64,000 nt of DNA, taken from positions 13,244 to 77,243 of the forward strand of contig JBLIRO010000007.1 in NCBI GenBank assembly GCA_049472335.1, written 5' to 3'. Source of the DNA: a bacterium. Lineage in GTDB: Bacteria > SZUA-182 > DTGQ01 > JAFGSM01. Of the stretch, positions 27,598-34,948 are shown piece by piece. Below the pieces are notes generated by a model. The model had not been told where the DNA came from, did no database searches, and saw only the letters and a program-made list of their open reading frames with translations. A program made the translations under genes and the position numbers. Positions within the stretch are counted from its first letter, which is position 1. Each line of letters opens with the position of its first letter.

Positions 27598-28387
27598 TTA
27601 AGATGTTCTATGCACATCAAGACTTTGATAAAACCTGATTAGAAGACCAGGAAGCCCCCTTTGTAATATCTTCAAATAATTTTTGGCCGCCTCCTGGCGC
27701 GCAGCTATTTCTTCCGAATATGTCATATATTCGGATTTTGCATTATCCACCACGATACGCCTTGTCCTGAAGAGCCCTTCTATAGATTGTTTTCTTCTTA
27801 GTCCTGCCTGCACTTTGTGTCGGGCCTTCTTTTGTTCCTTCCTCTCTGCCACCTGCATCCTGTGTCTTTCCATCCTCGTTATCGGGCCAACTCCTCTCGA
27901 AAGTTGGCATCCAAGATATACACATAAATATCCTCAATCGTGAACAGCCCCTTTGAATGTCTGTCCTGCCTCCCACGACCCTTGGTTTTTCCTATTTTGT
28001 CCCTGTATTCTGAGGCCCAGGTAGAGGCTGTGTAAAGTATACATCCTAAAATCCTTTCTCCCGATACTATTAAATATCTCAGATGTAGCCCAAAGGGGGT
28101 TTTATATTCTAAATAATGATATCTTTGCACATATTCGTTCCATAACCCAACTGCTCCCTTGAAACCTTTTTTATTGTGACCTCCCCCAACTGGTTCATCC
28201 TTCCCTGTACCAGTCCACCAGCATCGGTGCATGGTGTTATGTTTACCTTCACATTCCTTATCCCTTTTTTCAAACGTAATGGCGACAGCTTGATATGCCC
28301 CTGGGCTTCCAGTTTCTCCAATGTCCGCAGACAACTATTATGCTTGTTCGTATCATTGGGCGCCTGCCAGGATAAAGGATATTGCAT
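27598..28387 (-). pseudogene. decayed DUF4338-like gene (frameshifts plus an internal deletion) with a trailing ORF fragment
   Basis: The pieces lie in at least 3 frames. They include WNEYVQRYHYLEYKTPFGLHLRYLIVSGERILGCILYTASTWASEYRDKIG, joined directly to KTKGRGRQDRHSK...IEDIYVYIL. As I recall the DUF4338 family consensus, these are the RYHYLGY...LRY...RD..IGW block and the GRGR.DR C-terminal block, with the middle missing. Confidence 0.5.
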
Positions 28388-28810: not shown

Positions 28811-29923
28811 ATGTTTGGAAAGTGTTCCCCTAAAACAGGTTTGCAAATAATTACTGCAGTTGTTTTTGCCGTCTCCTTCCTTGCGGTCGGTTGTGATAGT
28901 GAGAATGCAGTAAAAAAACATCATAAGGCCATGAGCACCTTTACCGAAAGTGAGTACCAAATCCCGAAGGTGCCTGTTGACCGTCATTACATCGGCTATG
29001 CCTGGTCCAAACAATTCGGACCGGTAAAAGACCCTTTGACAAATGAGATTAAGATCAAGAAGGAAAGATCCTTCAACAAGGTACAACAGGATTTTGCCTA
29101 CAATGTCGGTATTGGTCTCGGGGCTCAGAGTATTACCGGCCCCGGAGGCGAAACCGAGTTCCAGCGCGCCGCGACAGACAGATCGAAACTGGAAGGGGTG
29201 GAGGTCATCAAGCCCGTTTCGCTGCCAGATATCCCCTTCGAACCCGAAGTGCCATATATAATAGAGGCTTTACGCCTGAAGGGTTTTACGATCAAGTCTG
29301 ATACGGCCACCGATTTAGGGCTCAATATTTCTGCAAGTAAACCTCTAATGGGTAAGGGAAGAGGCTCGGCAGGAGTTGGAGCTGAAAGTCATACGGAAAC
29401 CGAGGGCGAGGGGCTTGTCGTTGCTTACAAACTTAGTAAAATCGATATGTTATCATACGATAAGAAAGAATCTGACATCTTGCCTCTCGAAATTGAAAAA
29501 CCTCTGGATTTCCACGAAGCCGGAGTAGTTGTTAGAGCGAGTCTCAGTATCATAGAGCCCGGCTCCAATGAGACCCATCCAACTGATATCCTGTGGCCTT
29601 GTGAACGGGCCCAAGCGAATAATTTCGACATAGTGGCTGTTTGGATTGTTGATGTAGTACCAATTGATCTGAGGAAGAAACGTCTTTCTATAGGATTCCC
29701 CGCCTATCCCGAGATTGAGGATTGCAACTATTTTAGCGGCTTGATATTCTCCAGGATAGATCCTGTCACCGATAAGATACACCGTCAGAAGATCACCATC
29801 ACTGTCGAAGATGCTGAGGTTTCTGACACCTTGCAGCCTAAAACCTGGAACGCCAGGGTCTCTCTTATAAGTGAGTCATTCAACATCAGTTTGGTTTTGG
29901 CTAAGGAGATGGAGGAGGACTAA
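28811..29923 (+). CDS. lipoprotein of unknown function
   Basis: 370 aa with a lipobox (FLAVGC at residues ~23-28). I recognise no family. Confidence 0.7.
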   Translation: MFGKCSPKTGLQIITAVVFAVSFLAVGCDSENAVKKHHKAMSTFTESEYQIPKVPVDRHYIGYAWSKQFGPVKDPLTNEIKIKKERSFNKVQQDFAYNVGIGLGAQSITGPGGETEFQRAATDRSKLEGVEVIKPVSLPDIPFEPEVPYIIEALRLKGFTIKSDTATDLGLNISASKPLMGKGRGSAGVGAESHTETEGEGLVVAYKLSKIDMLSYDKKESDILPLEIEKPLDFHEAGVVVRASLSIIEPGSNETHPTDILWPCERAQANNFDIVAVWIVDVVPIDLRKKRLSIGFPAYPEIEDCNYFSGLIFSRIDPVTDKIHRQKITITVEDAEVSDTLQPKTWNARVSLISESFNISLVLAKEMEED

Positions 29924-29993
29924 TGTTACAGACAGTCTGTAAACCCAAAAACTCGATCGGGGATTTCCCCAAAGAGATTAGTATGAAGCCGAA

Positions 29994-30956
29994 ATGTACA
30001 GAAAAGTTATCATGAGGCACACAAAAATTATCCTAAGACACATGCAAATCTCTACATCATTCATAATGATATGTGTTTTCTTGATATTCTCAATCCTCCC
30101 TCTGCGGGTCCATGCAGAGGATAGCACAAAAGTTGACTGGGTGAACGGCTACATCCTTGCCACAGGATATGGGACAGCAAAACAGGGAACAAACAAAGCT
30201 TATGCAGTAATATCCTCAAAAGAGGCTGGGAAGTATCTTGCCATGAGAAGTCTACTGGAAGCTATCAAGGGTGTGTACATCGATTCACAGGTTTTGGTGC
30301 GAGACTATATAATTGAAGAGGATATTACCCGCATTAAGGTGGAGGGGCTGCTCAAAGGAGCAGAGGTTATTGACACAAAAACAACATGGGAAGAGGGGCT
30401 GCCAATAACAGCTGTTACCATGAGGATCTGCATGAGCGCGCAAGGTACTGGCTGCGAACCAGGAAATACACTCATTGACACCCTACAGTTAAACAAGTTT
30501 GCGGATTCACCGCTAATTCCTAAAAAGAGATATTCCCAGGATACTGCCCTGCGGAAGCCCTCACAGGGCACATCCGATGATGACGGTTTAAGTAAAAAAT
30601 CACTTAATCAGGTAACAGGCGTCATTTTCAGCCTGCAAGGGCATCCATTCCGCAGGGTACTTCTGCCTGTGGTTGTTACTTTAAGCAAGGATGGCAGTAT
30701 GTCCACAGTATACTCAGTGAAACGCGTCGATCCCGAGATAGTTATAAAATACGGAATCATCCGCTATGCTAACACGCTGGAGCAGGCTGGAAGAATCGAA
30801 AAATTAGGGGACGAGCCTTTAATAATTCCCATTGAAAAGGTCACTGATGACAACATATTGGCAATCAGTACCAACAGTGCGCAAAAGATCTACGAGACCA
30901 CAATGCATGGCAATGATTACCTGCGGAAGGCAAATGTGGCTATCAGTTCCGAATAG
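29994..30956 (+). CDS. secreted LPP20/FlgP-like domain protein
   Basis: It has a signal peptide ending RVHA-ED. It then reads GYILATGYGTAK...AYAVISSKEAGKYLAMRSLLEAIKGVYIDSQVLVRDY...VEGLLKGAEV, the LPP20-family pattern. The start is uncertain; an alternative Met lies at 30042. Confidence 0.55.
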   Translation: MYRKVIMRHTKIILRHMQISTSFIMICVFLIFSILPLRVHAEDSTKVDWVNGYILATGYGTAKQGTNKAYAVISSKEAGKYLAMRSLLEAIKGVYIDSQVLVRDYIIEEDITRIKVEGLLKGAEVIDTKTTWEEGLPITAVTMRICMSAQGTGCEPGNTLIDTLQLNKFADSPLIPKKRYSQDTALRKPSQGTSDDDGLSKKSLNQVTGVIFSLQGHPFRRVLLPVVVTLSKDGSMSTVYSVKRVDPEIVIKYGIIRYANTLEQAGRIEKLGDEPLIIPIEKVTDDNILAISTNSAQKIYETTMHGNDYLRKANVAISSE

Positions 30957-31241
30957 GAGTTAAGAATCAATAAGAGGGCTTGAAGGTTCTATATTCCTGG
31001 CTTTTGACTCCTTGCTTCTGAATTTTGACTAAATGCTTCTGGCACCTGATCTCCTGCTCCCAATTACCCCATTATGATCAAAATTTTTTTATAAGAGAGG
31101 GGGGGATAAGCATTTAAACAAATTTGGGAAGTAAATGCCTAAAGAGAAAGGAGGGATTATATAGAGGGATAAAATATAAGGATTAATATCCGAAAAAATA
31201 GTAAAATAAAAATTCTTCTTTAAAAATCAAGGAGGCTTAGA

Positions 31242-31976
31242 ATGGAAAGAAGAAATGAAATGATCATCATAATGTGTTCAATTGTATTCATAACTATTTT
31301 TATTGCCTTTAAAGCTTCGGCTCAATCAAAATTTAAATGGGATATAACCCCCCGGCTGTGGTATGTTGATTGGGATGCGGGTGAGAATTTGAGTGACTCA
31401 ACATTGATGTATGGATTAGGTGGCTCCATTTCTTATAACAAGTTCGCTTTTGGATTATCTTTTCTCACCGGAGAATTTGAGTCTGAAATTTCTGGTTCTG
31501 GATATGATTCTTATCATGGTTATTATGACTATAAAATAAATATATCCGCTGATCGTTCGGATATTGATGTTTATGCCAGCTATAGAATAATTGATCCCTA
31601 CCTGAGTTTGTCTCTTGGTTATAAAATTATCGAATATGATATAAAGGCTACTGAGTCTCTCTATAATGAGCAAGTAAATGCTGATGGAGAAATGACAGGT
31701 TTTGGCTTAGGTGCATCTGGGGCTTTCCCTATTCGGGATAAATTTTACGGGTATTATATAGCTTCTTATTTACCCTCAATGAAATCTAAATATGAAGATG
31801 AGGAAGGTTCAGATGAGGGACATGTGAATACATTTAATTTAGAATTAGGTGTTGGATATATGATTAATGAAAAAATAACAGCGGGCTTGGGGTGGAAATA
31901 TCAGAATCTTGATTGGGAAGAAGGAGAAGATGAAAAATTAAATGGTATCATCCTTATGGCTAACTTTGGATTTTGA
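31242..31976 (+). CDS. small outer-membrane beta-barrel protein
   Basis: It has a signal peptide (AFKASA-QS), alternating aromatic/Gly-rich strands and a C-terminal ...ILMANFGF ending in Phe. Confidence 0.6.
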   Translation: MERRNEMIIIMCSIVFITIFIAFKASAQSKFKWDITPRLWYVDWDAGENLSDSTLMYGLGGSISYNKFAFGLSFLTGEFESEISGSGYDSYHGYYDYKINISADRSDIDVYASYRIIDPYLSLSLGYKIIEYDIKATESLYNEQVNADGEMTGFGLGASGAFPIRDKFYGYYIASYLPSMKSKYEDEEGSDEGHVNTFNLELGVGYMINEKITAGLGWKYQNLDWEEGEDEKLNGIILMANFGF

Positions 31977-32129
31977 CAAAGCTCTCAAATGATAGAATAT
32001 AAATCATTAGAATTCTCTCTATATATATTATTTAATATCATCCTGAGGTATCCAACTGATAAATAATCAAACAGATTTCAAATGGAGAATAGCCGATTCA
32101 GACTAAAAATCCAATTCTCAAAAATACTC

Positions 32130-32188
32130 GGTGTTCTCTGTGTACTTTGTGGTAATATTTTAAACCACTCAAGAACACAGAGAACACA
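32130..32188. repeat. REP-like imperfect palindrome (ACACAGAGAAC core)
   Basis: GGTGTTCTCTGTGTACTTTGTGG, ~12 nt, CCACTCAAGAACACAGAGAACACA. It shares the CTCTGTGT/ACACAGAG core with the 7843-7967 element. Confidence 0.5.
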
Positions 32189-32397
32189 GGGTTAATCAAA
32201 TTATTCCGAAACAATTTGATATTCCTTCAGGCGTAAAACTAACCAACTGAATTAAACGCCCTATTCGGAAAAAAGGAGTCAGAATCCACACTTGTAAATT
32301 TCCTTCTGCCTCCTGAGATTTCTTAAGTCAAGTCAATACTACTGAGTTCTCAGCAACAAAGTGTGAACAAAATTTTCATTATATAGTCCGTAAGCGG

Positions 32398-33603
32398 CTA
32401 AAAAGTAAATGGGGTTTTGAATATTTTCTTTTCTTCTTTTAAGTTCTTTTCCTTGTTTTTTTCTAATAAATCACTCTTTTCATCTTTTTCTAAGGGTTTT
32501 TTTTGTGAATTTATTTCCTGTTTTTTTTGAATCTCAAAGAGTTCTTCCTCAACCGCCTTTATTTCTTCATTGATGTTCTGTTGCTCATTCATGAGAGTTT
32601 TCTTTTCCTGAAGTATTTTTTGCATTTCTTCAAGTTTCTTTTTTTGTTGCTGGAGTTCCTCCATATCTTTTTGTAGTTTCTGTCTCTCCAAATCAATTTC
32701 TTTGTCTTTTAGTAAAATATCTTTATGAACTTTAAGATCATCATTATAAAGAAAGTTAATAAAAATAAACTCTCCACCTTCATCCATGGTTCCTTCTAAT
32801 GGTCTACAAATAGGAATTTGTTGGGCATTTCTGGAAATAAAAAGTTTGATTTTTTCGAAAATACTTAGTGGGGTAATATAAAGTTCCTCATTATCTTCTA
32901 ATATCTTTATAAAATAGTAAGCAAAAATAGAATGGTTTTCAAAACCGGTATCTGATACTGGTTGAATATGACCAGAGGTTAAGACCTGACGTGACTTTAG
33001 CTTTCCATAATTTTTTATATAATTATAGTCGATTTTTGCAGGAGGTTTAAAAACCGATCTTAGCAAAAGAGTGCCTGAAAAACATGAATCAGAGACTAAA
33101 TAAATATGCTTACATCCAGCGGCTTTAATTAAATCGTGAATTGTAGAATTTGGTATATAGGTGCTGTAATCACTAAATTTAGAATCAGAAGGTATCCAAT
33201 TTCCGGTATTGAGCTCAGTATCCAGATATCCATGACCTGCAAAATAGATAAACAAGTTATCATCTTGTTTAACCTTTCCTATCAGACTTCTAAATTCTTT
33301 TATTATCCTTCGTCTTGTTGCATCTTGATTAATAAGAAGTACAATATTTTCCTCAGGAAAACCATATTTATGTATTAAAAGCTCATATATTTTTTTAACA
33401 TCATTCACAGCGGTTTGTAAAGGGTCCCATTCATCATATTTATTGATCCCGATTAGAAAACCCCAGAATTCACCTTTTGAAGGGAGATTATTTATATCCT
33501 TTGAGGACACAAAGATACCACGATCCTCACAAAAACTTATTTTAGGACAAAAAAAATATCCTAATATTAATATAATGAAAATACAGCAAATTATTTTTTT
33601 CAT
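32398..33603 (-). CDS. caspase-family (peptidase C14) protein with a signal peptide and a C-terminal coiled coil
   Basis: The catalytic dyad contexts are IYFAGHGY and IYLVSDSCFSG. There is an N-terminal hydrophobic signal (MKKIICCIFIILILGYFF). The last ~110 aa are a K/E/Q-rich heptad-like coiled coil. Confidence 0.85.
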   Translation of the reverse strand: MKKIICCIFIILILGYFFCPKISFCEDRGIFVSSKDINNLPSKGEFWGFLIGINKYDEWDPLQTAVNDVKKIYELLIHKYGFPEENIVLLINQDATRRRIIKEFRSLIGKVKQDDNLFIYFAGHGYLDTELNTGNWIPSDSKFSDYSTYIPNSTIHDLIKAAGCKHIYLVSDSCFSGTLLLRSVFKPPAKIDYNYIKNYGKLKSRQVLTSGHIQPVSDTGFENHSIFAYYFIKILEDNEELYITPLSIFEKIKLFISRNAQQIPICRPLEGTMDEGGEFIFINFLYNDDLKVHKDILLKDKEIDLERQKLQKDMEELQQQKKKLEEMQKILQEKKTLMNEQQNINEEIKAVEEELFEIQKKQEINSQKKPLEKDEKSDLLEKNKEKNLKEEKKIFKTPFTF

Positions 33604-34075
33604 TAAACGGCGTCACAATATCTATTCACTGCAAAAAATGAAAAAAGTATGCTAAAGTATTTTTTATACACAATAAGATATCAAAAAATAATTTTTTGGA
33701 CGTTAAATTATAATATTTAAAAATAAACGTATAATATATAAAAAATCTCTTTCTATAGCTAAGATAGCTAAATTTTAACCTTTTGTCAAAACAAATAATC
33801 AGTAAGAGCTTTTTTGATCGAGTCATTAATCTGAAACAAATAACTTTTAAAAATCACAGACAATATGATAGTATACTATAACTCATTCAATATTTGCGAG
33901 TTTGATTTCAGTTGTTATTATTTGATATAGCTATTTTTACAAAGGAAATAAGTCAAGGGATTTTTATAATATTGATCCTGAATATTTATATATTACAATA
34001 TATCATAAATATCATAAAAAAGCAGAGATATCTTTTTAGCAAGACGGTTGTAGTAGAGAAAAAGGAGAATGTCTG

Positions 34076-34948
34076 ATGACATTATATAAATTTTTCACGC
34101 CTTCATGCATTTTGGTCCTTTTGTTTTTTTCTCTTCCCCAATATAGTTTTGCAAAGCAGTCACAGATTATAGAGGCAGATGGCTATTCATGCATGGGTGA
34201 TGAGAAATCGAGAAAGCAGACAAGAGATGATGCCCTGATAGATGCAAAGAAAAAAGCAGTTCAACATTGTGTGACTTATATTAAGAGTGAAACAAGGATC
34301 GAAAATGCTATCCTCACGCAAGATATTATTGATGCATATACTAATGCAGATATACATATTCTTAATGTGCAAGAATTGGGCTGGTCAAAAGACAAGGATT
34401 CTGGTGAATGCTTTTACGTCCACATAAAGGCAGAGGTCATTCCCCGTGAAGAAGTGATGGAAAAAATAATACAGGGGAAAGCTTTAGAAAAGAACCCTGA
34501 AGCCCCTCTCAATGTCTCTGTCTGGACTGATAAAAAAGAATATTCAAAAGGAGATAAAATAAAAATATATATAAGAGGGAACAAGCCCTTCTTTGGAATA
34601 GTTCTCTATAAGGAGGCTAATGGAAATTTAGTCCAGCTCCTACCTAATCCTTATAGACGAGATCAGTATTTCAATGGCGGTGTTGTCTATGAGATACCCT
34701 CAGGAAATGATAAATTTGAATTGGAGGTGAGACCTCCCTTTGGTGAAGAGATTGTCACCCTTTATGCAAGCACTGAGATGCTGGGTGAAATAGAACTCGA
34801 AAAAGCGAAGGGTGTATATTTGGTAAAGACAAAATATGATGAAGTGCCTTTTAAAACCCGTGGAATTGCTATCACAAGAAAAAAACAAAGGGAAAAAATT
34901 CCTGCCGAATTTTCAGAAGTAAACTATGCTGTTAAGATAGATGAATAA
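34076..34948 (+). CDS. secreted LPP20-like plus DUF4384 domain protein
   Basis: It has a signal peptide ending SFA-KQ, an N-terminal LPP20-like segment (ADGYSCMGDEKSRKQTRDDALIDAKKKAVQHCVTYIKSET) and a DUF4384 pattern (VSVWTDKKEYSKGDKIKIYIRGNKPFFGIVLYKEANGNLVQLLPNP...EIVTLYAS). Confidence 0.65.
   Translation: MTLYKFFTPSCILVLLFFSLPQYSFAKQSQIIEADGYSCMGDEKSRKQTRDDALIDAKKKAVQHCVTYIKSETRIENAILTQDIIDAYTNADIHILNVQELGWSKDKDSGECFYVHIKAEVIPREEVMEKIIQGKALEKNPEAPLNVSVWTDKKEYSKGDKIKIYIRGNKPFFGIVLYKEANGNLVQLLPNPYRRDQYFNGGVVYEIPSGNDKFELEVRPPFGEEIVTLYASTEMLGEIELEKAKGVYLVKTKYDEVPFKTRGIAITRKKQREKIPAEFSEVNYAVKIDE

What the first reader, a model, noticed from the sequence alone, without database searches (positions are those of the whole stretch)
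28811..34948. AT-rich envelope gene cluster built around a signal-peptide caspase-like protease
There are five genes, all with export signals. They encode a 370-aa lipoprotein with no recognisable family, an LPP20/FlgP-like secreted protein, a small beta-barrel OMP ending in Phe, a peptidase C14 (caspase-family) protein and a divergently transcribed LPP20-like plus DUF4384 protein. The caspase-family protein has an intact His/Cys dyad context (FAGHG, DSCFSG) and a ~110-aa K/E/Q coiled-coil tail. DUF4384 is known to be associated with bacterial caspase domains, which supports a functional link. By eye the cluster, especially 31.2-34 kb, is clearly more AT-rich than the flanking housekeeping genes. 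It is also bordered by a decayed mobile-element-like pseudogene (27.6-28.4 kb) and a REP-like palindrome (32130-32188). An extracytoplasmic caspase with dedicated OM and lipoprotein partners is not a described system. One possibility is regulated proteolysis of an envelope substrate, and the 370-aa lipoprotein is a candidate substrate. I looked for gasdermin-like features in that lipoprotein because bacterial gasdermins sit next to caspase-like proteases. I could not support that from sequence alone.
Basis: partly seen in the sequence, partly recalled or inferred. Interest (0 to 1): 0.65.

Follow-up and report, generated by a model that had tools for sequence, protein, structure and literature searches.

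The report
Exported caspase with outer-membrane partners
An uncultured sediment bacterium encodes a caspase-type protease that is sent outside the cytoplasm together with its own small outer-membrane barrel and a DUF4384 partner; the same trio recurs in unrelated bacteria and no paper found here describes it.

Summary
The five genes exist as described and all five products have export signals. The caspase gene is a genuine Peptidase_C14. His124 and Cys174 are invariant in 58 homologues, and the AlphaFold model matches metacaspases.

The cluster is two units rather than one.
- **Unit 1 (28811-30956, normal GC).** It encodes a 370-aa lipoprotein of an unannotated family and a secreted protein with a FlgP-like domain. 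This pair is a conserved operon in 64 species of Desulfobacterota and Nitrospirota.
- **Unit 2 (31242-34948).** It encodes a small beta-barrel, the caspase and a FlgP-like/DUF4384 protein. Only the caspase and the barrel are strongly AT-rich.

Caspase, barrel and DUF4384 genes are adjacent in several unrelated contigs. Barrel-linked caspases end in a conserved Pro-x-x-Leu/Phe C-terminal peptide. In lipo370 loci with at least 5 kb on both sides, a caspase is present in 6 of 22 and DUF4384 in 8 of 22, and the caspase subfamily differs between loci.

The lipoprotein shows no gasdermin-like fold or any other known fold.

My reading is an outer-membrane-tethered periplasmic caspase module placed in a variable slot of a conserved envelope-scaffold locus.

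The parts
27598..28387 (-). Decayed DruA/DUF4338-like gene, split over three reading frames. It is context at the left edge and not part of the system.
   Evidence: ORFs. Pfam DruA PF14236 E 1.7e-7 for 27879-28334. No PADLOC hit.
28811..29923 (+). 370-aa lipoprotein ('lipo370'). Lipobox LAVG-C28, beta-rich, in no Pfam or NCBIfam family. Normal GC (0.466).
   Evidence: 297 homologues, many near 50% identity. Cys28, Cys264 and Cys305 are invariant. AF2 pLDDT 78 with disordered loops at 110-127 and 164-199. No fold match.
29994..30956 (+). 320-aa secreted protein ('W320'). It has a signal peptide (...VHA|ED), a FlgP/LPP20-like domain at about residues 46-122, and a conserved C-terminal domain of unknown fold.
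   Evidence: The family profile hits FlgP structures 9hmf, 9yfg, 9yec, 8z5n and 9yds (E 2.5e-10 to 3.5e-6). It accompanies lipo370 in 34 of 36 loci with at least 5 kb downstream.
31242..31976 (+). 244-aa small outer-membrane beta-barrel, the cognate partner of the caspase. Signal peptide ...ASA|QS, C-terminal ...MANFGF. AT-rich (GC 0.347).
   Evidence: Pfam OMP_b-brl 1.7e-10. 46% identical to the barrel next to the 56%-identical caspase in L002. The same family lies directly downstream of caspases in L096, L098, L103, L106, L152, L153 and L154.
32126..32192 (.). Imperfect 22-nt inverted repeat forming a stable hairpin between the convergent barrel and caspase genes. It is probably a bidirectional terminator.
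   Evidence: Fold -33.7 kcal/mol, z -6.07. Single copy in the window.
32398..33603 (-). 401-aa exported Peptidase_C14 (metacaspase/orthocaspase-like). Parts in order: signal peptide (residues 1-25), invariant Arg28, caspase domain (residues 45-285, nt 32749-33471), His124 (nt 33232-33234), Cys174 (nt 33082-33084), 77-residue K/E/Q helix (residues 291-367, nt 32503-32733), basic disordered tail ending ...FKTPFTF. Lowest GC in the window (0.298).
33604..34075 (.). 472-bp divergent intergenic region between the caspase and DUF4384 genes. Very AT-rich (GC 0.235). Presumed promoters.
   Evidence: Promoter-like hits are not above the shuffled expectation.
34076..34948 (+). 290-aa secreted partner. 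Signal peptide ...SFA|KQ, FlgP-like N-domain (residues ~26-125, nt 34151-34450), DUF4384 domain (residues 156-234, nt 34541-34777).
   Evidence: Pfam DUF4384 2.6e-21. The N-domain links to W320 by jackhmmer and weakly to the lipoprotein 9yec (E 0.009). 52-57% identical to orthologues that sit directly next to lipo370 in L034 and L053, with a third orthologue in the same locus in L067.

Best explanation
Genes 31242-34948 encode a Sec-exported, catalytically competent metacaspase-like protease. It works in the periplasm as a three-part module with a cognate small outer-membrane beta-barrel and a FlgP-like/DUF4384 partner.

**Proposed mechanism (inferred)**
- After signal-peptide removal the protease is held under the outer membrane. 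A rigid 77-residue helical stalk and a conserved C-terminal Pro-x-x-Phe/Leu peptide, which resembles an OMP beta-signal, dock it on the barrel.
- The DUF4384 protein acts as an adaptor, regulator or first substrate. Its N-domain is of the ring-forming FlgP type.
- The output is limited proteolysis of envelope proteins, not bulk degradation.

**Genomic setting**
- The module occupies a variable 'caspase slot' in a conserved envelope-scaffold locus. That locus encodes the lipo370 lipoprotein and the FlgP-like W320 protein, and in relatives also CsgG-like and FlgT_N-like proteins.
- Here the caspase+barrel pair looks like a laterally acquired replacement. The DUF4384 gene looks resident.

**Shown:** export signals, intact dyad and fold, conserved gene neighbourhoods, composition.

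**Inferred:** tethering through the C-terminus, the role of DUF4384, regulated proteolysis, and the biological role. For the role I favour envelope surveillance or signalling over housekeeping maturation.
For: - **Protease identity.** Peptidase_C14 scores 58.9 bits. His124 and Cys174 are invariant and align with the catalytic pair of AtMC4. The AF2 model (pLDDT 86) matches metacaspases, GSU0716 and MALT1 at E down to 6e-13, probability 1.00.
- **Export.** All five window proteins have signal-like N-termini. So do 103 of 116 caspase homologues.
- **Conserved trio.** Caspase, barrel and DUF4384 are adjacent in L002/L003, L103, L152 and L153. Caspase and barrel are adjacent in L098, L106, L096 and L154.
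- **C-terminal peptide.** Barrel-linked caspases end in PLPTL, PIPTL, PLPTF, PFTF, SFNF or PVAPAF. Among 83 complete metagenomic caspase ORFs, all 3 with the strict motif have the barrel downstream, and none of the 79 that lack the barrel carries the strict motif.
- **Non-homologous barrel in the same position.** The closest relative has C14, a FadL-type OMP and DUF4384 in that order.
- **Link to the lipo370 locus.** Of 22 loci with at least 5 kb on both sides, 6 hold a caspase and 8 hold DUF4384, and every locus with a caspase also has DUF4384. L055 has c1-lipo370-W320-DUF4384-caspase as one tight same-strand operon.
- **Resident DUF4384 gene.** The window's copy is 52-57% identical to lipo370-adjacent orthologues. 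The window's caspase is only 21-30% identical to the caspases at those loci.
- **Fusion evidence.** P0105 joins a caspase domain to FlgO, LpoB and CsgG-like domains.
- **Composition.** The caspase and barrel are the AT-rich outliers.
- **Assembly.** Contigs from several independent runs cover the junctions without differences.
Against: - There is no experimental evidence for localisation, activity, tethering or substrate.
- The signal-peptide cleavage site of the window's caspase is atypical (ISFC|ED). No dedicated predictor such as SignalP was available.
- The helix may be a single ER/K-type helix rather than a coiled coil. Hydrophobic occupancy of heptad a/d positions is only 0.5.
- No integrase, tRNA or flanking direct repeats mark an insertion. 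Population evidence for presence/absence variants is inconclusive.
- lipo370 and W320 occur without a caspase in most loci, so their functional link to the protease is facultative at best.
- My DUF4384, FlgP-like and barrel profiles were built in-session from few sequences and probably undercount partners.
The binomial estimate rests on assumed copy numbers.
Confidence: 0.55

Rival explanations
1. There are two unrelated units that happen to be neighbours. The lipo370-W320 operon is an ordinary conserved envelope operon. The caspase+barrel (+DUF4384) is an independently acquired island with no functional tie to it.
For: - GC switches sharply at about 30957.
- lipo370-W320 lacks a caspase in 16 of 22 well-covered loci.
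- The caspase-barrel-DUF4384 trio occurs without lipo370 in L103, L152, L153 and L002.
- Variant contigs diverge exactly at the 3' end of W320.
Against: - A caspase in 27% and DUF4384 in 36% of well-covered lipo370 loci is far above what a rare gene family should give by chance.
- The arrangements are permuted but always adjacent, including one tight operon in L055.
- The closest relative carries all the components together.
- W320 and the DUF4384 protein share a homologous FlgP-like domain.
Confidence: 0.25
2. The caspase is a site-1-type signalling protease. It cleaves the periplasmic part of an anti-sigma-like membrane protein, or of the DUF4384 partner, to transmit an outer-membrane signal to transcription. 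This would parallel DegS-RseA or Csx29-Csx30-RpoE.
For: - In the short-caspase operons L103, L152 and L153, the gene immediately upstream of the caspase gives weak, repeated zf-HC2 anti-sigma zinc-finger hits (E 1.4e-4, 0.012, 0.0044). In L103 that gene overlaps the caspase gene.
- Some Csx30 proteins, the substrate of the caspase-like Csx29, have a DUF4384 C-terminal domain and bind RpoE.
- The caspase C-terminus resembles an OMP beta-signal.
Against: - No sigma or anti-sigma gene lies next to the module in this window.
- The zf-HC2 hits sit at or below the Pfam cut-off.
- The ~300-aa gene before it has no sigma-70 hit.
Confidence: 0.12
3. This is a gasdermin-like or abortive-infection death module. 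The caspase cleaves the 370-aa lipoprotein, or another neighbour, to release a membrane-damaging fragment.
For: - Bacterial gasdermins sit next to caspase-like proteases (established knowledge).
- lipo370 has two long disordered loops that could be cleaved.
- The caspase slot is variable and AT-rich, and it lies next to a decayed DruA-like gene.
- A PADLOC caspase model matches the domain.
Against: - The lipo370 model has no match to gasdermins or to anything else (best E 0.036, TM about 0.1).
- lipo370 is widespread without a protease.
- All components are exported, whereas known gasdermin systems act from the cytoplasm.
- PADLOC finds nothing for the other four proteins.
Confidence: 0.04
4. 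It is a secreted degradative protease for nutrition or for surface-protein turnover, comparable to clostripain- or gingipain-type clan CD enzymes. The neighbouring genes are incidental.
For: It is an exported clan CD peptidase. Many homologues carry adhesin-like or lectin-like C-terminal domains such as PEGA, DUF1566 and FGE-sulfatase.
Against: A dedicated barrel and a DUF4384 partner are conserved across phyla. The stalk plus docking-type C-terminus points to tethering, not release.
Confidence: 0.04

Closest known systems
Prokaryotic metacaspases/orthocaspases (MEROPS family C14, clan CD). Examples are the cyanobacterial orthocaspases and GSU0716 of Geobacter sulfurreducens (PDB 3BIJ).
   Same: - Peptidase_C14 domain above threshold.
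- Invariant His-Cys dyad with the D-x-C motif.
- Caspase-haemoglobinase fold.
- DUF4384 is a known accessory domain of orthocaspases.
   Different: - The described orthocaspases are treated as cytoplasmic enzymes involved in cell death or stress.
- This subfamily is exported. Its DUF4384 lies on a separate secreted FlgP-like protein. It has a cognate outer-membrane barrel and a conserved C-terminal docking-type peptide.
- None of these three features appears in the papers found.
Type III-E CRISPR 'Craspase': Cas7-11 with the caspase-like protease Csx29 and its substrate Csx30
   Same: A clan CD caspase-like protease is paired with a partner protein that can carry a DUF4384 domain. That partner is the regulated substrate (bioRxiv 10.1101/2022.08.17.504292).
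   Different: - This locus has no CRISPR or cas genes and no TPR-CHAT architecture.
- Everything here is exported.
- The protease belongs to C14, not to the CHAT family.
- This is an analogy, not membership.
FlgP / LPP20 lipoproteins (flagellar basal-disk and H-ring proteins; H. pylori Lpp20) and the CsgG/FlgO/LpoB-type outer-membrane scaffold lipoproteins
   Same: - The W320 N-domain matches solved FlgP chains by profile.
- The DUF4384 protein has the same domain.
- Related loci carry CsgG (E 2.8e-47) and FlgT_N-like genes.
   Different: - There are no flagellar genes nearby.
- W320 and the DUF4384 protein have ordinary signal peptides, not lipoboxes.
- Pfam LPP20 does not reach E 0.1 on the window proteins.
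- Both proteins carry extra C-terminal domains.
Bacterial gasdermin plus caspase-like protease operons
   Same: A caspase-family protease sits next to a candidate substrate gene.
   Different: There is no gasdermin fold in any neighbour. The components are exported rather than cytoplasmic.
DegS-RseA-sigmaE envelope-stress proteolysis
   Same: This is a conceptual parallel only. In both cases a periplasmic protease's activity is tied to OMP-type C-terminal peptides. In some relatives an anti-sigma-like gene also lies upstream.
   Different: The protease class differs (serine/PDZ versus cysteine C14). Here the OMP-like C-terminus is on the protease itself. No sigma or anti-sigma gene is present in this window.

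Membership tests
Peptidase C14 (caspase/metacaspase/orthocaspase) | Pfam PF00656 match above the gathering score | tested here: met
   58.9 bits against a cut-off of 21.4, residues 50-266.
Peptidase C14 (caspase/metacaspase/orthocaspase) | Catalytic His-Cys dyad in the conserved G-H-G and D-x-C-x-S-G contexts | tested here: met
   His124 and Cys174 are invariant in 58 sequences. They align with His86/Cys139 of AtMC4, and the C139A mutant chain confirms the register.
Peptidase C14 (caspase/metacaspase/orthocaspase) | Caspase-haemoglobinase fold | tested here: met
   AF2 pLDDT 86. Foldseek against PDB gives metacaspases at E 6e-13 with TM (target) 0.57-0.64, plus 3BIJ and MALT1. The His-Cys distance could not be measured because coordinates are not returned.
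Peptidase C14 (caspase/metacaspase/orthocaspase) | Proteolytic activity with Arg/Lys P1 specificity | not testable with these tools
   Only the conserved acidic residues (Asp68, Asp172, Asp218) are seen.
NCBIfam NF047832 'caspase, EACC1-associated type' | Score above the curated cut-off of 140 bits | tested here: not met
   61.8 bits. This is domain-level similarity only.
DUF4384 (PF14326) | Pfam match above the gathering score | tested here: met
   75.9 bits against a cut-off of 27, residues 156-234 of the 290-aa protein.
LPP20/FlgP family | Sequence membership (Pfam LPP20 PF02169, or similarity to solved FlgP) | tested here: inconclusive
   No Pfam LPP20 hit at E <= 0.1 on either window protein. 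The W320 family profile hits FlgP structures at 2.5e-10 to 3.5e-6. The DUF4384-protein family profile reaches only 0.009 but joins W320 by jackhmmer.
LPP20/FlgP family | Lipoprotein (lipobox Cys) | tested here: not met
   W320 and the DUF4384 protein have type-I-like signal peptides without a lipobox.
Small outer-membrane beta-barrel (OMP_b-brl PF13505) | Pfam match above the cut-off, a signal peptide and a C-terminal aromatic beta-signal | tested here: met
   41.8 bits against 28.7. Signal peptide ...ASA|QS and C-terminus ...MANFGF.
Bacterial gasdermin system | A neighbouring protein with a gasdermin fold | tested here: not met
   For the lipo370 model the best PDB hit has E 0.036 and TM about 0.1, and no gasdermin appears in the 50 PDB matches shown. 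BFVD likewise. The other neighbours are assigned to other families.
Genomic island / mobile element | Atypical composition | tested here: met
   Caspase GC 0.298 (z -3.0; GC3 z -2.6) and barrel 0.347 (z -1.8). Not met for lipo370 or W320.
Genomic island / mobile element | Integrase or transposase, a tRNA target, or flanking direct repeats | tested here: not met
   None in 27-35.5 kb. The only relic is a DruA/DUF4338-like pseudogene.
Known anti-phage defence systems (PADLOC-DB 2.0) | Hits to system-specific models for several genes | tested here: not met
   Only a generic caspase-domain model matches (E 1.2e-17, positions 4-137 of 453). There is nothing for the other proteins.

The most novel reading that the evidence does not exclude
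The exported caspase, its beta-barrel and the FlgP-like/DUF4384 protein form an outer-membrane-anchored surveillance protease.
- The barrel, or in relatives a WD40, TPR or retroelement-diversified lectin domain, senses an extracytoplasmic cue such as phage attachment, an outer-membrane lesion or a foreign ligand.
- The stalked caspase is held by its beta-signal-like C-terminal peptide and released or activated on that cue.
- It then cleaves the FlgP-like scaffold proteins (DUF4384 partner, W320, lipo370) to remodel or sacrifice the envelope.

This would be a periplasmic, NTPase-independent counterpart of cytoplasmic caspase-based immune systems. Caspases would be swapped in a variable slot beside a constant DUF4384 adaptor.
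Probability: 0.12. Interest if true: 0.85.

Novelty: new variant of a known kind. Interest (0 to 1): 0.55.

Why it matters
Bacterial caspase homologues are studied almost entirely as cytoplasmic enzymes of cell death, stress or immunity. This locus, together with the related loci found here, suggests something broader. A large subfamily appears to be exported (103 of 116 homologues have signal-like N-termini). These enzymes travel with dedicated envelope partners: a cognate beta-barrel, a DUF4384 protein and FlgP/CsgG-type scaffold proteins. No paper found here describes a function for this arrangement.

The analysis yields testable handles:
- a catalytic Cys (Cys174);
- a conserved C-terminal peptide that co-occurs with the barrel;
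- a constant DUF4384 partner beside a swappable caspase.

It also defines an unannotated lipoprotein family, conserved in 64 species, and its operon. If the tethering and regulated-proteolysis model holds, it would add a new class of envelope protease system. It would also give a first functional context for DUF4384.

Tried and rejected
1. **Whole-genome searches.** I could not measure genome-wide copy numbers of C14 or DUF4384, test the hairpin as a genome-wide repeat, or identify the organism from its genome.
2. **Gasdermin or any known fold for lipo370.** Foldseek against PDB and BFVD found nothing. A profile search of 1.84 billion representatives found only 63 clusters. The distant ones have no Pfam domain. 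One Calx-beta giant matched, probably through a Gly/Glu-rich stretch.
3. **Defence-system membership.** PADLOC matched only a generic caspase model.
4. **Mobile-element hallmarks and structured RNAs in 27-35.5 kb.** None were found. Promoter-like hits were no more frequent than in shuffled sequence.
5. **Presence/absence variants in public metagenome runs.** Coverage was only about 3-6x in short contigs. A 27211->34954 joint appeared in one run at 90% likeness with a 35-nt side, and it was not reproduced at 95%. Variant contigs diverge at 30941 in two runs, but I could not retrieve their continuation. This is inconclusive.
6. **Other conserved operon genes in the window.** The partners c1, c3, c4 and the CsgG-like c7 are absent from the window.
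7. **'REP-like' repeat.** The hairpin arm occurs only at its own two arms in the window.
8. **Solved structures for DUF4384.** A profile search by sequence found no significant match for the DUF4384 part.

Full report
**1. What is in the sequence**

Pfam gives these results:
- Peptidase_C14 for 32398-33603(-): 58.9 bits, cut-off 21.4.
- DUF4384 for 34076-34948(+): 75.9 bits, cut-off 27.
- OMP_b-brl for 31242-31976(+): 41.8 bits, cut-off 28.7.
- Nothing for 28811-29923(+), here 'lipo370', or for 29994-30956(+), here 'W320'.

NCBIfam adds only a sub-threshold 'caspase, EACC1-associated type' hit (61.8 bits against 140).

All five N-termini have a basic start, a strongly hydrophobic core and a small-residue -3/-1 site. 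lipo370 has a lipobox whose Cys28 is invariant in its family. The barrel ends in ...MANFGF.

**2. Composition**

Per-gene GC shows that the cluster is not uniform.

| Gene | GC | z against window genes |
|---|---|---|
| lipo370 | 0.466 | +1.1 |
| W320 | 0.447 | +0.6 |
| barrel | 0.347 | -1.8 |
| caspase | 0.298 | -3.0 (GC3 0.239; lowest in the window) |
| DUF4384 gene | 0.370 | -1.3 |

The switch falls at the 3' end of W320. No integrase, tRNA, Rfam family or flanking direct repeat marks an insertion.

The pseudogene at 27.6-28.4 kb matches DruA/DUF4338 (E 1.7e-7). The palindrome at 32126-32192 is a strong hairpin between convergent genes (-33.7 kcal/mol, z -6.1). It is single-copy in the window, so it looks like a terminator rather than a REP element.

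Short contigs from several sediment and mangrove metagenome runs cover three junctions without differences: W320/barrel, the caspase 3' end, and DUF4384/queD. The arrangement is therefore not an assembly artefact.

**3. The caspase**

280 homologues were found, and most of the best 120 carry Peptidase_C14.
- In a 58-sequence alignment His124, Cys174, Asp172 and Arg28 are invariant.
- phmmer aligns FAGHG and DSCFSG with His86 and Cys139 of Arabidopsis metacaspase-4. The C139A mutant chain fixes the register.
- The AlphaFold model (pLDDT 86) has a confident caspase domain (residues 45-285). It also has one uninterrupted helix (291-367) and a disordered basic tail ending ...KKIFKTPFTF.
- Foldseek places the model with metacaspases (E 6e-13, TM 0.57-0.64), Geobacter GSU0716 (3BIJ) and MALT1.

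The tail is 53% K+E+Q, and hydrophobic occupancy of heptad a/d positions is 0.5. It may be a coiled coil or a single ER/K-type spacer helix.

Of 116 homologues that start with Met, 103 have a hydrophobic N-terminus. Export is the rule in this subfamily. Relatives replace the tail with PEGA, DUF1566, FGE-sulfatase, WD40 or TPR domains.

**4. Caspase, barrel and DUF4384 form a conserved module**

- The closest caspase (56% identity, L002/L003) is followed by a barrel 46% identical to the window's. It is flanked by two DUF4384 genes.
- The next closest (54%, L001) sits beside a short OMP_b-brl gene and a 717-aa LPP20/FlgO/DUF4384 protein.
- In an unbiased sample of 80 metagenomic loci, the barrel family lies directly downstream of the caspase in L096, L098, L103 and L106. 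DUF4384 is present in 7 of the 22 loci longer than 10 kb.
- L103, L152 and L153 share a six-gene operon: TPR protein, ~300 aa, ~300 aa, caspase, barrel, DUF4384.
- L154 pairs a coiled-coil caspase with a barrel.
- Caspase and barrel identities to the window fall broadly together: 56/46, 37/31, 33/28 and 32/23%. This fits co-inheritance of the pair.

*New observation.* Every barrel-linked caspase ends in a short Pro-containing peptide with a C-terminal Leu or Phe: PLPTL, PIPTL, PLPTF, MPALRF, PVAPAF, APSFNF, and here TPFTF. Of 83 complete metagenomic caspase ORFs, the three with the strict motif all have the barrel downstream. None of the 79 that lack the barrel carries the strict motif. In the window and in L002 this peptide resembles the barrel's own beta-signal (PFTF against NFGF; SFNF against NFNF). 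I infer that the C-terminus docks on the barrel. This is not shown.

**5. The first two genes**

lipo370 belongs to a compact, unannotated family.
- It has 297 hits, many near 50% identity.
- It forms only 63 clusters among 1.84 billion representatives.
- Its model (pLDDT 78) is beta-rich with two disordered loops. It matches nothing in PDB or BFVD (best E about 0.03, TM about 0.1).

There is therefore no support for a gasdermin-like protein.

A profile of the W320 family hits solved FlgP lipoproteins at residues 46-122 (E 2.5e-10 to 3.5e-6). Iterated search shows that the N-domain of the window's DUF4384 protein is homologous to it.

I fetched 64 species-level loci around lipo370 homologues, from Syntrophaceae, Smithella, Geobacteraceae, Desulfuromonadales and Nitrospirae.
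- The conserved operon is lipo370, then c1 (a ~435-aa secreted, Pro-rich protein), then sometimes c3 (a ~118-aa secreted protein), then W320.
- W320 is present in 34 of 36 loci with at least 5 kb downstream.
- Recurrent extras are CsgG-like (E 2.8e-47), FlgT_N-like and TPR proteins.
- The window lacks c1, c3 and the CsgG-like gene.

**6. The link between the two halves**

- Among the 22 lipo370 loci with at least 5 kb on both sides, 6 carry a caspase and 8 carry a FlgP-like+DUF4384 gene. Every locus with a caspase also has DUF4384.
- The arrangements are permuted but adjacent. L055 is a tight same-strand operon: c1, lipo370, W320, DUF4384, WD40-caspase.
- The closest relative (lipo370 79% identical) has C14, a FadL-type OMP, DUF4384, lipo370, W320 and a second FadL-type OMP. 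A non-homologous barrel thus sits in the same position.
- The 72%-identical relative has no caspase. It has other FlgP-like genes instead.
- The window's DUF4384 protein is 52-57% identical to orthologues that sit directly next to lipo370 in L034 and L053, with a third orthologue in the same locus in L067. That is about the same divergence as lipo370 itself.
- The window's caspase is only 21-30% identical to the WD40-caspases at those loci.

My reading is that the DUF4384 gene is resident. The caspase position beside it is a variable slot. Here an AT-rich, laterally acquired caspase+barrel pair fills that slot.

P0105 fuses a caspase domain to FlgO/LpoB/CsgG-like domains. This independently ties exported caspases to this class of scaffold proteins.

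**7. Mechanism**

*Shown:* export signals, a competent active site and fold, and conserved partners.

*Inferred:*
- The protease is tethered under the outer membrane by the stalk and the C-terminal peptide.
- The DUF4384 protein acts as adaptor, regulator or first substrate. Its FlgP-type domain forms rings in the solved flagellar structures.
- Cleavage is limited and regulated.

The analogy for DUF4384 is Craspase. [quoted passage not shown]

In the gammaproteobacterial-type operons, the gene that abuts the caspase gives repeated weak zf-HC2 anti-sigma hits. This hints at signalling, but no such gene is present in this window.

The variable slot, the foreign composition and the sensor-type domains in relatives favour a surveillance or conflict role. 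PADLOC recognises no system.

**8. Comparison with what is known, and novelty**

The protease is a member of family C14, and DUF4384-caspase association is in the literature. Only seven papers in the library mention DUF4384. None describes an exported caspase with a barrel and a DUF4384 partner.

Earlier notes from this scan report similar exported caspase + LPP20/DUF4384 modules in at least 40 genomes. These are unchecked AI notes. My own neighbourhood analyses agree with their core claim. They add three things: the barrel partner, the C-terminal motif and the lipo370-W320 host locus.

I classify the finding as a new variant of a known kind, with moderate-to-high interest.

Noticed in passing
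L103:7091-8008, L152:5072-5992, L153:5153-5998: In the short-caspase operons, the gene immediately upstream of the caspase (overlapping it in L103) gives weak but repeated zf-HC2 anti-sigma zinc-finger hits: E 1.4e-4, 0.012 and 0.0044. The operon is TPR/M48-like (~640 aa), ~300 aa, zf-HC2-like (~300 aa), caspase, barrel, DUF4384. It may be a signalling version of the module.
   Followed up: partly
window 32401-32421 (caspase C-terminus) and the C-termini of P0002, P0006, P0078, P0086, P0099: Barrel-linked caspases end in a conserved Pro-x-(Pro)-x-Leu/Phe peptide. In the window and in L002 it mimics the beta-signal of the neighbouring barrel (PFTF/NFGF, SFNF/NFNF).
   Followed up: partly
P0105 (446 aa): A single protein joins a signal peptide, a caspase domain and a FlgO/LpoB/CsgG-like domain. 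This is Rosetta-stone evidence linking exported caspases to outer-membrane scaffold lipoproteins.
   Followed up: partly
Caspase homologues (for example P0008, P0043, P0050, P0058): Many exported caspases end in FGE-sulfatase (PF03781) domains. This is the fold typically diversified by diversity-generating retroelements. Others carry PEGA or DUF1566 domains.
   Followed up: no
window 27598-28387 (-): A DruA/DUF4338-like gene is broken over three frames between rpsO and lipo370 (Pfam DruA E 1.7e-7). No other Druantia component and no PADLOC hit were found.
   Followed up: partly
window 30941: Contigs from two different metagenome runs (X1, X5) match up to 30941, five codons before the W320 stop. 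They then continue with identical unrelated sequence (TTTACTCTAGGCGAACTG...). This suggests a strain variant with different DNA downstream of W320. A possible 27211->34954 joint in run X2 was not reproducible.
   Followed up: partly
L008-L071 (for example L019:1429-2733, L056:3823-4179): The conserved lipo370 operon contains two further unannotated secreted proteins. One is c1, ~435 aa with a long PPV-repeat linker and a weak FlgD_ig hit. The other is c3, ~118 aa. Both are absent from the window.
   Followed up: partly
window 29994-30956, residues 225-291: The C-terminal domain of the W320 family weakly matches Treponema pallidum Tp0624 (PDB 5JIR chain B, residues 175-244, E 8e-4).
   Followed up: no
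window 29994 vs ~30081: The public gene call for W320 is 291 aa (P0241). That call would start inside the hydrophobic core of the signal peptide. Homologues support the longer form with an intact signal peptide.
   Followed up: partly
window 32398-33603, Arg28: Arg28 lies three residues after the predicted signal-peptide cleavage site and is invariant in all 58 aligned homologues (motif [DENQ]-R-G). It could be an autoprocessing site or a site that blocks the active site in an Arg-specific protease.
   Followed up: no
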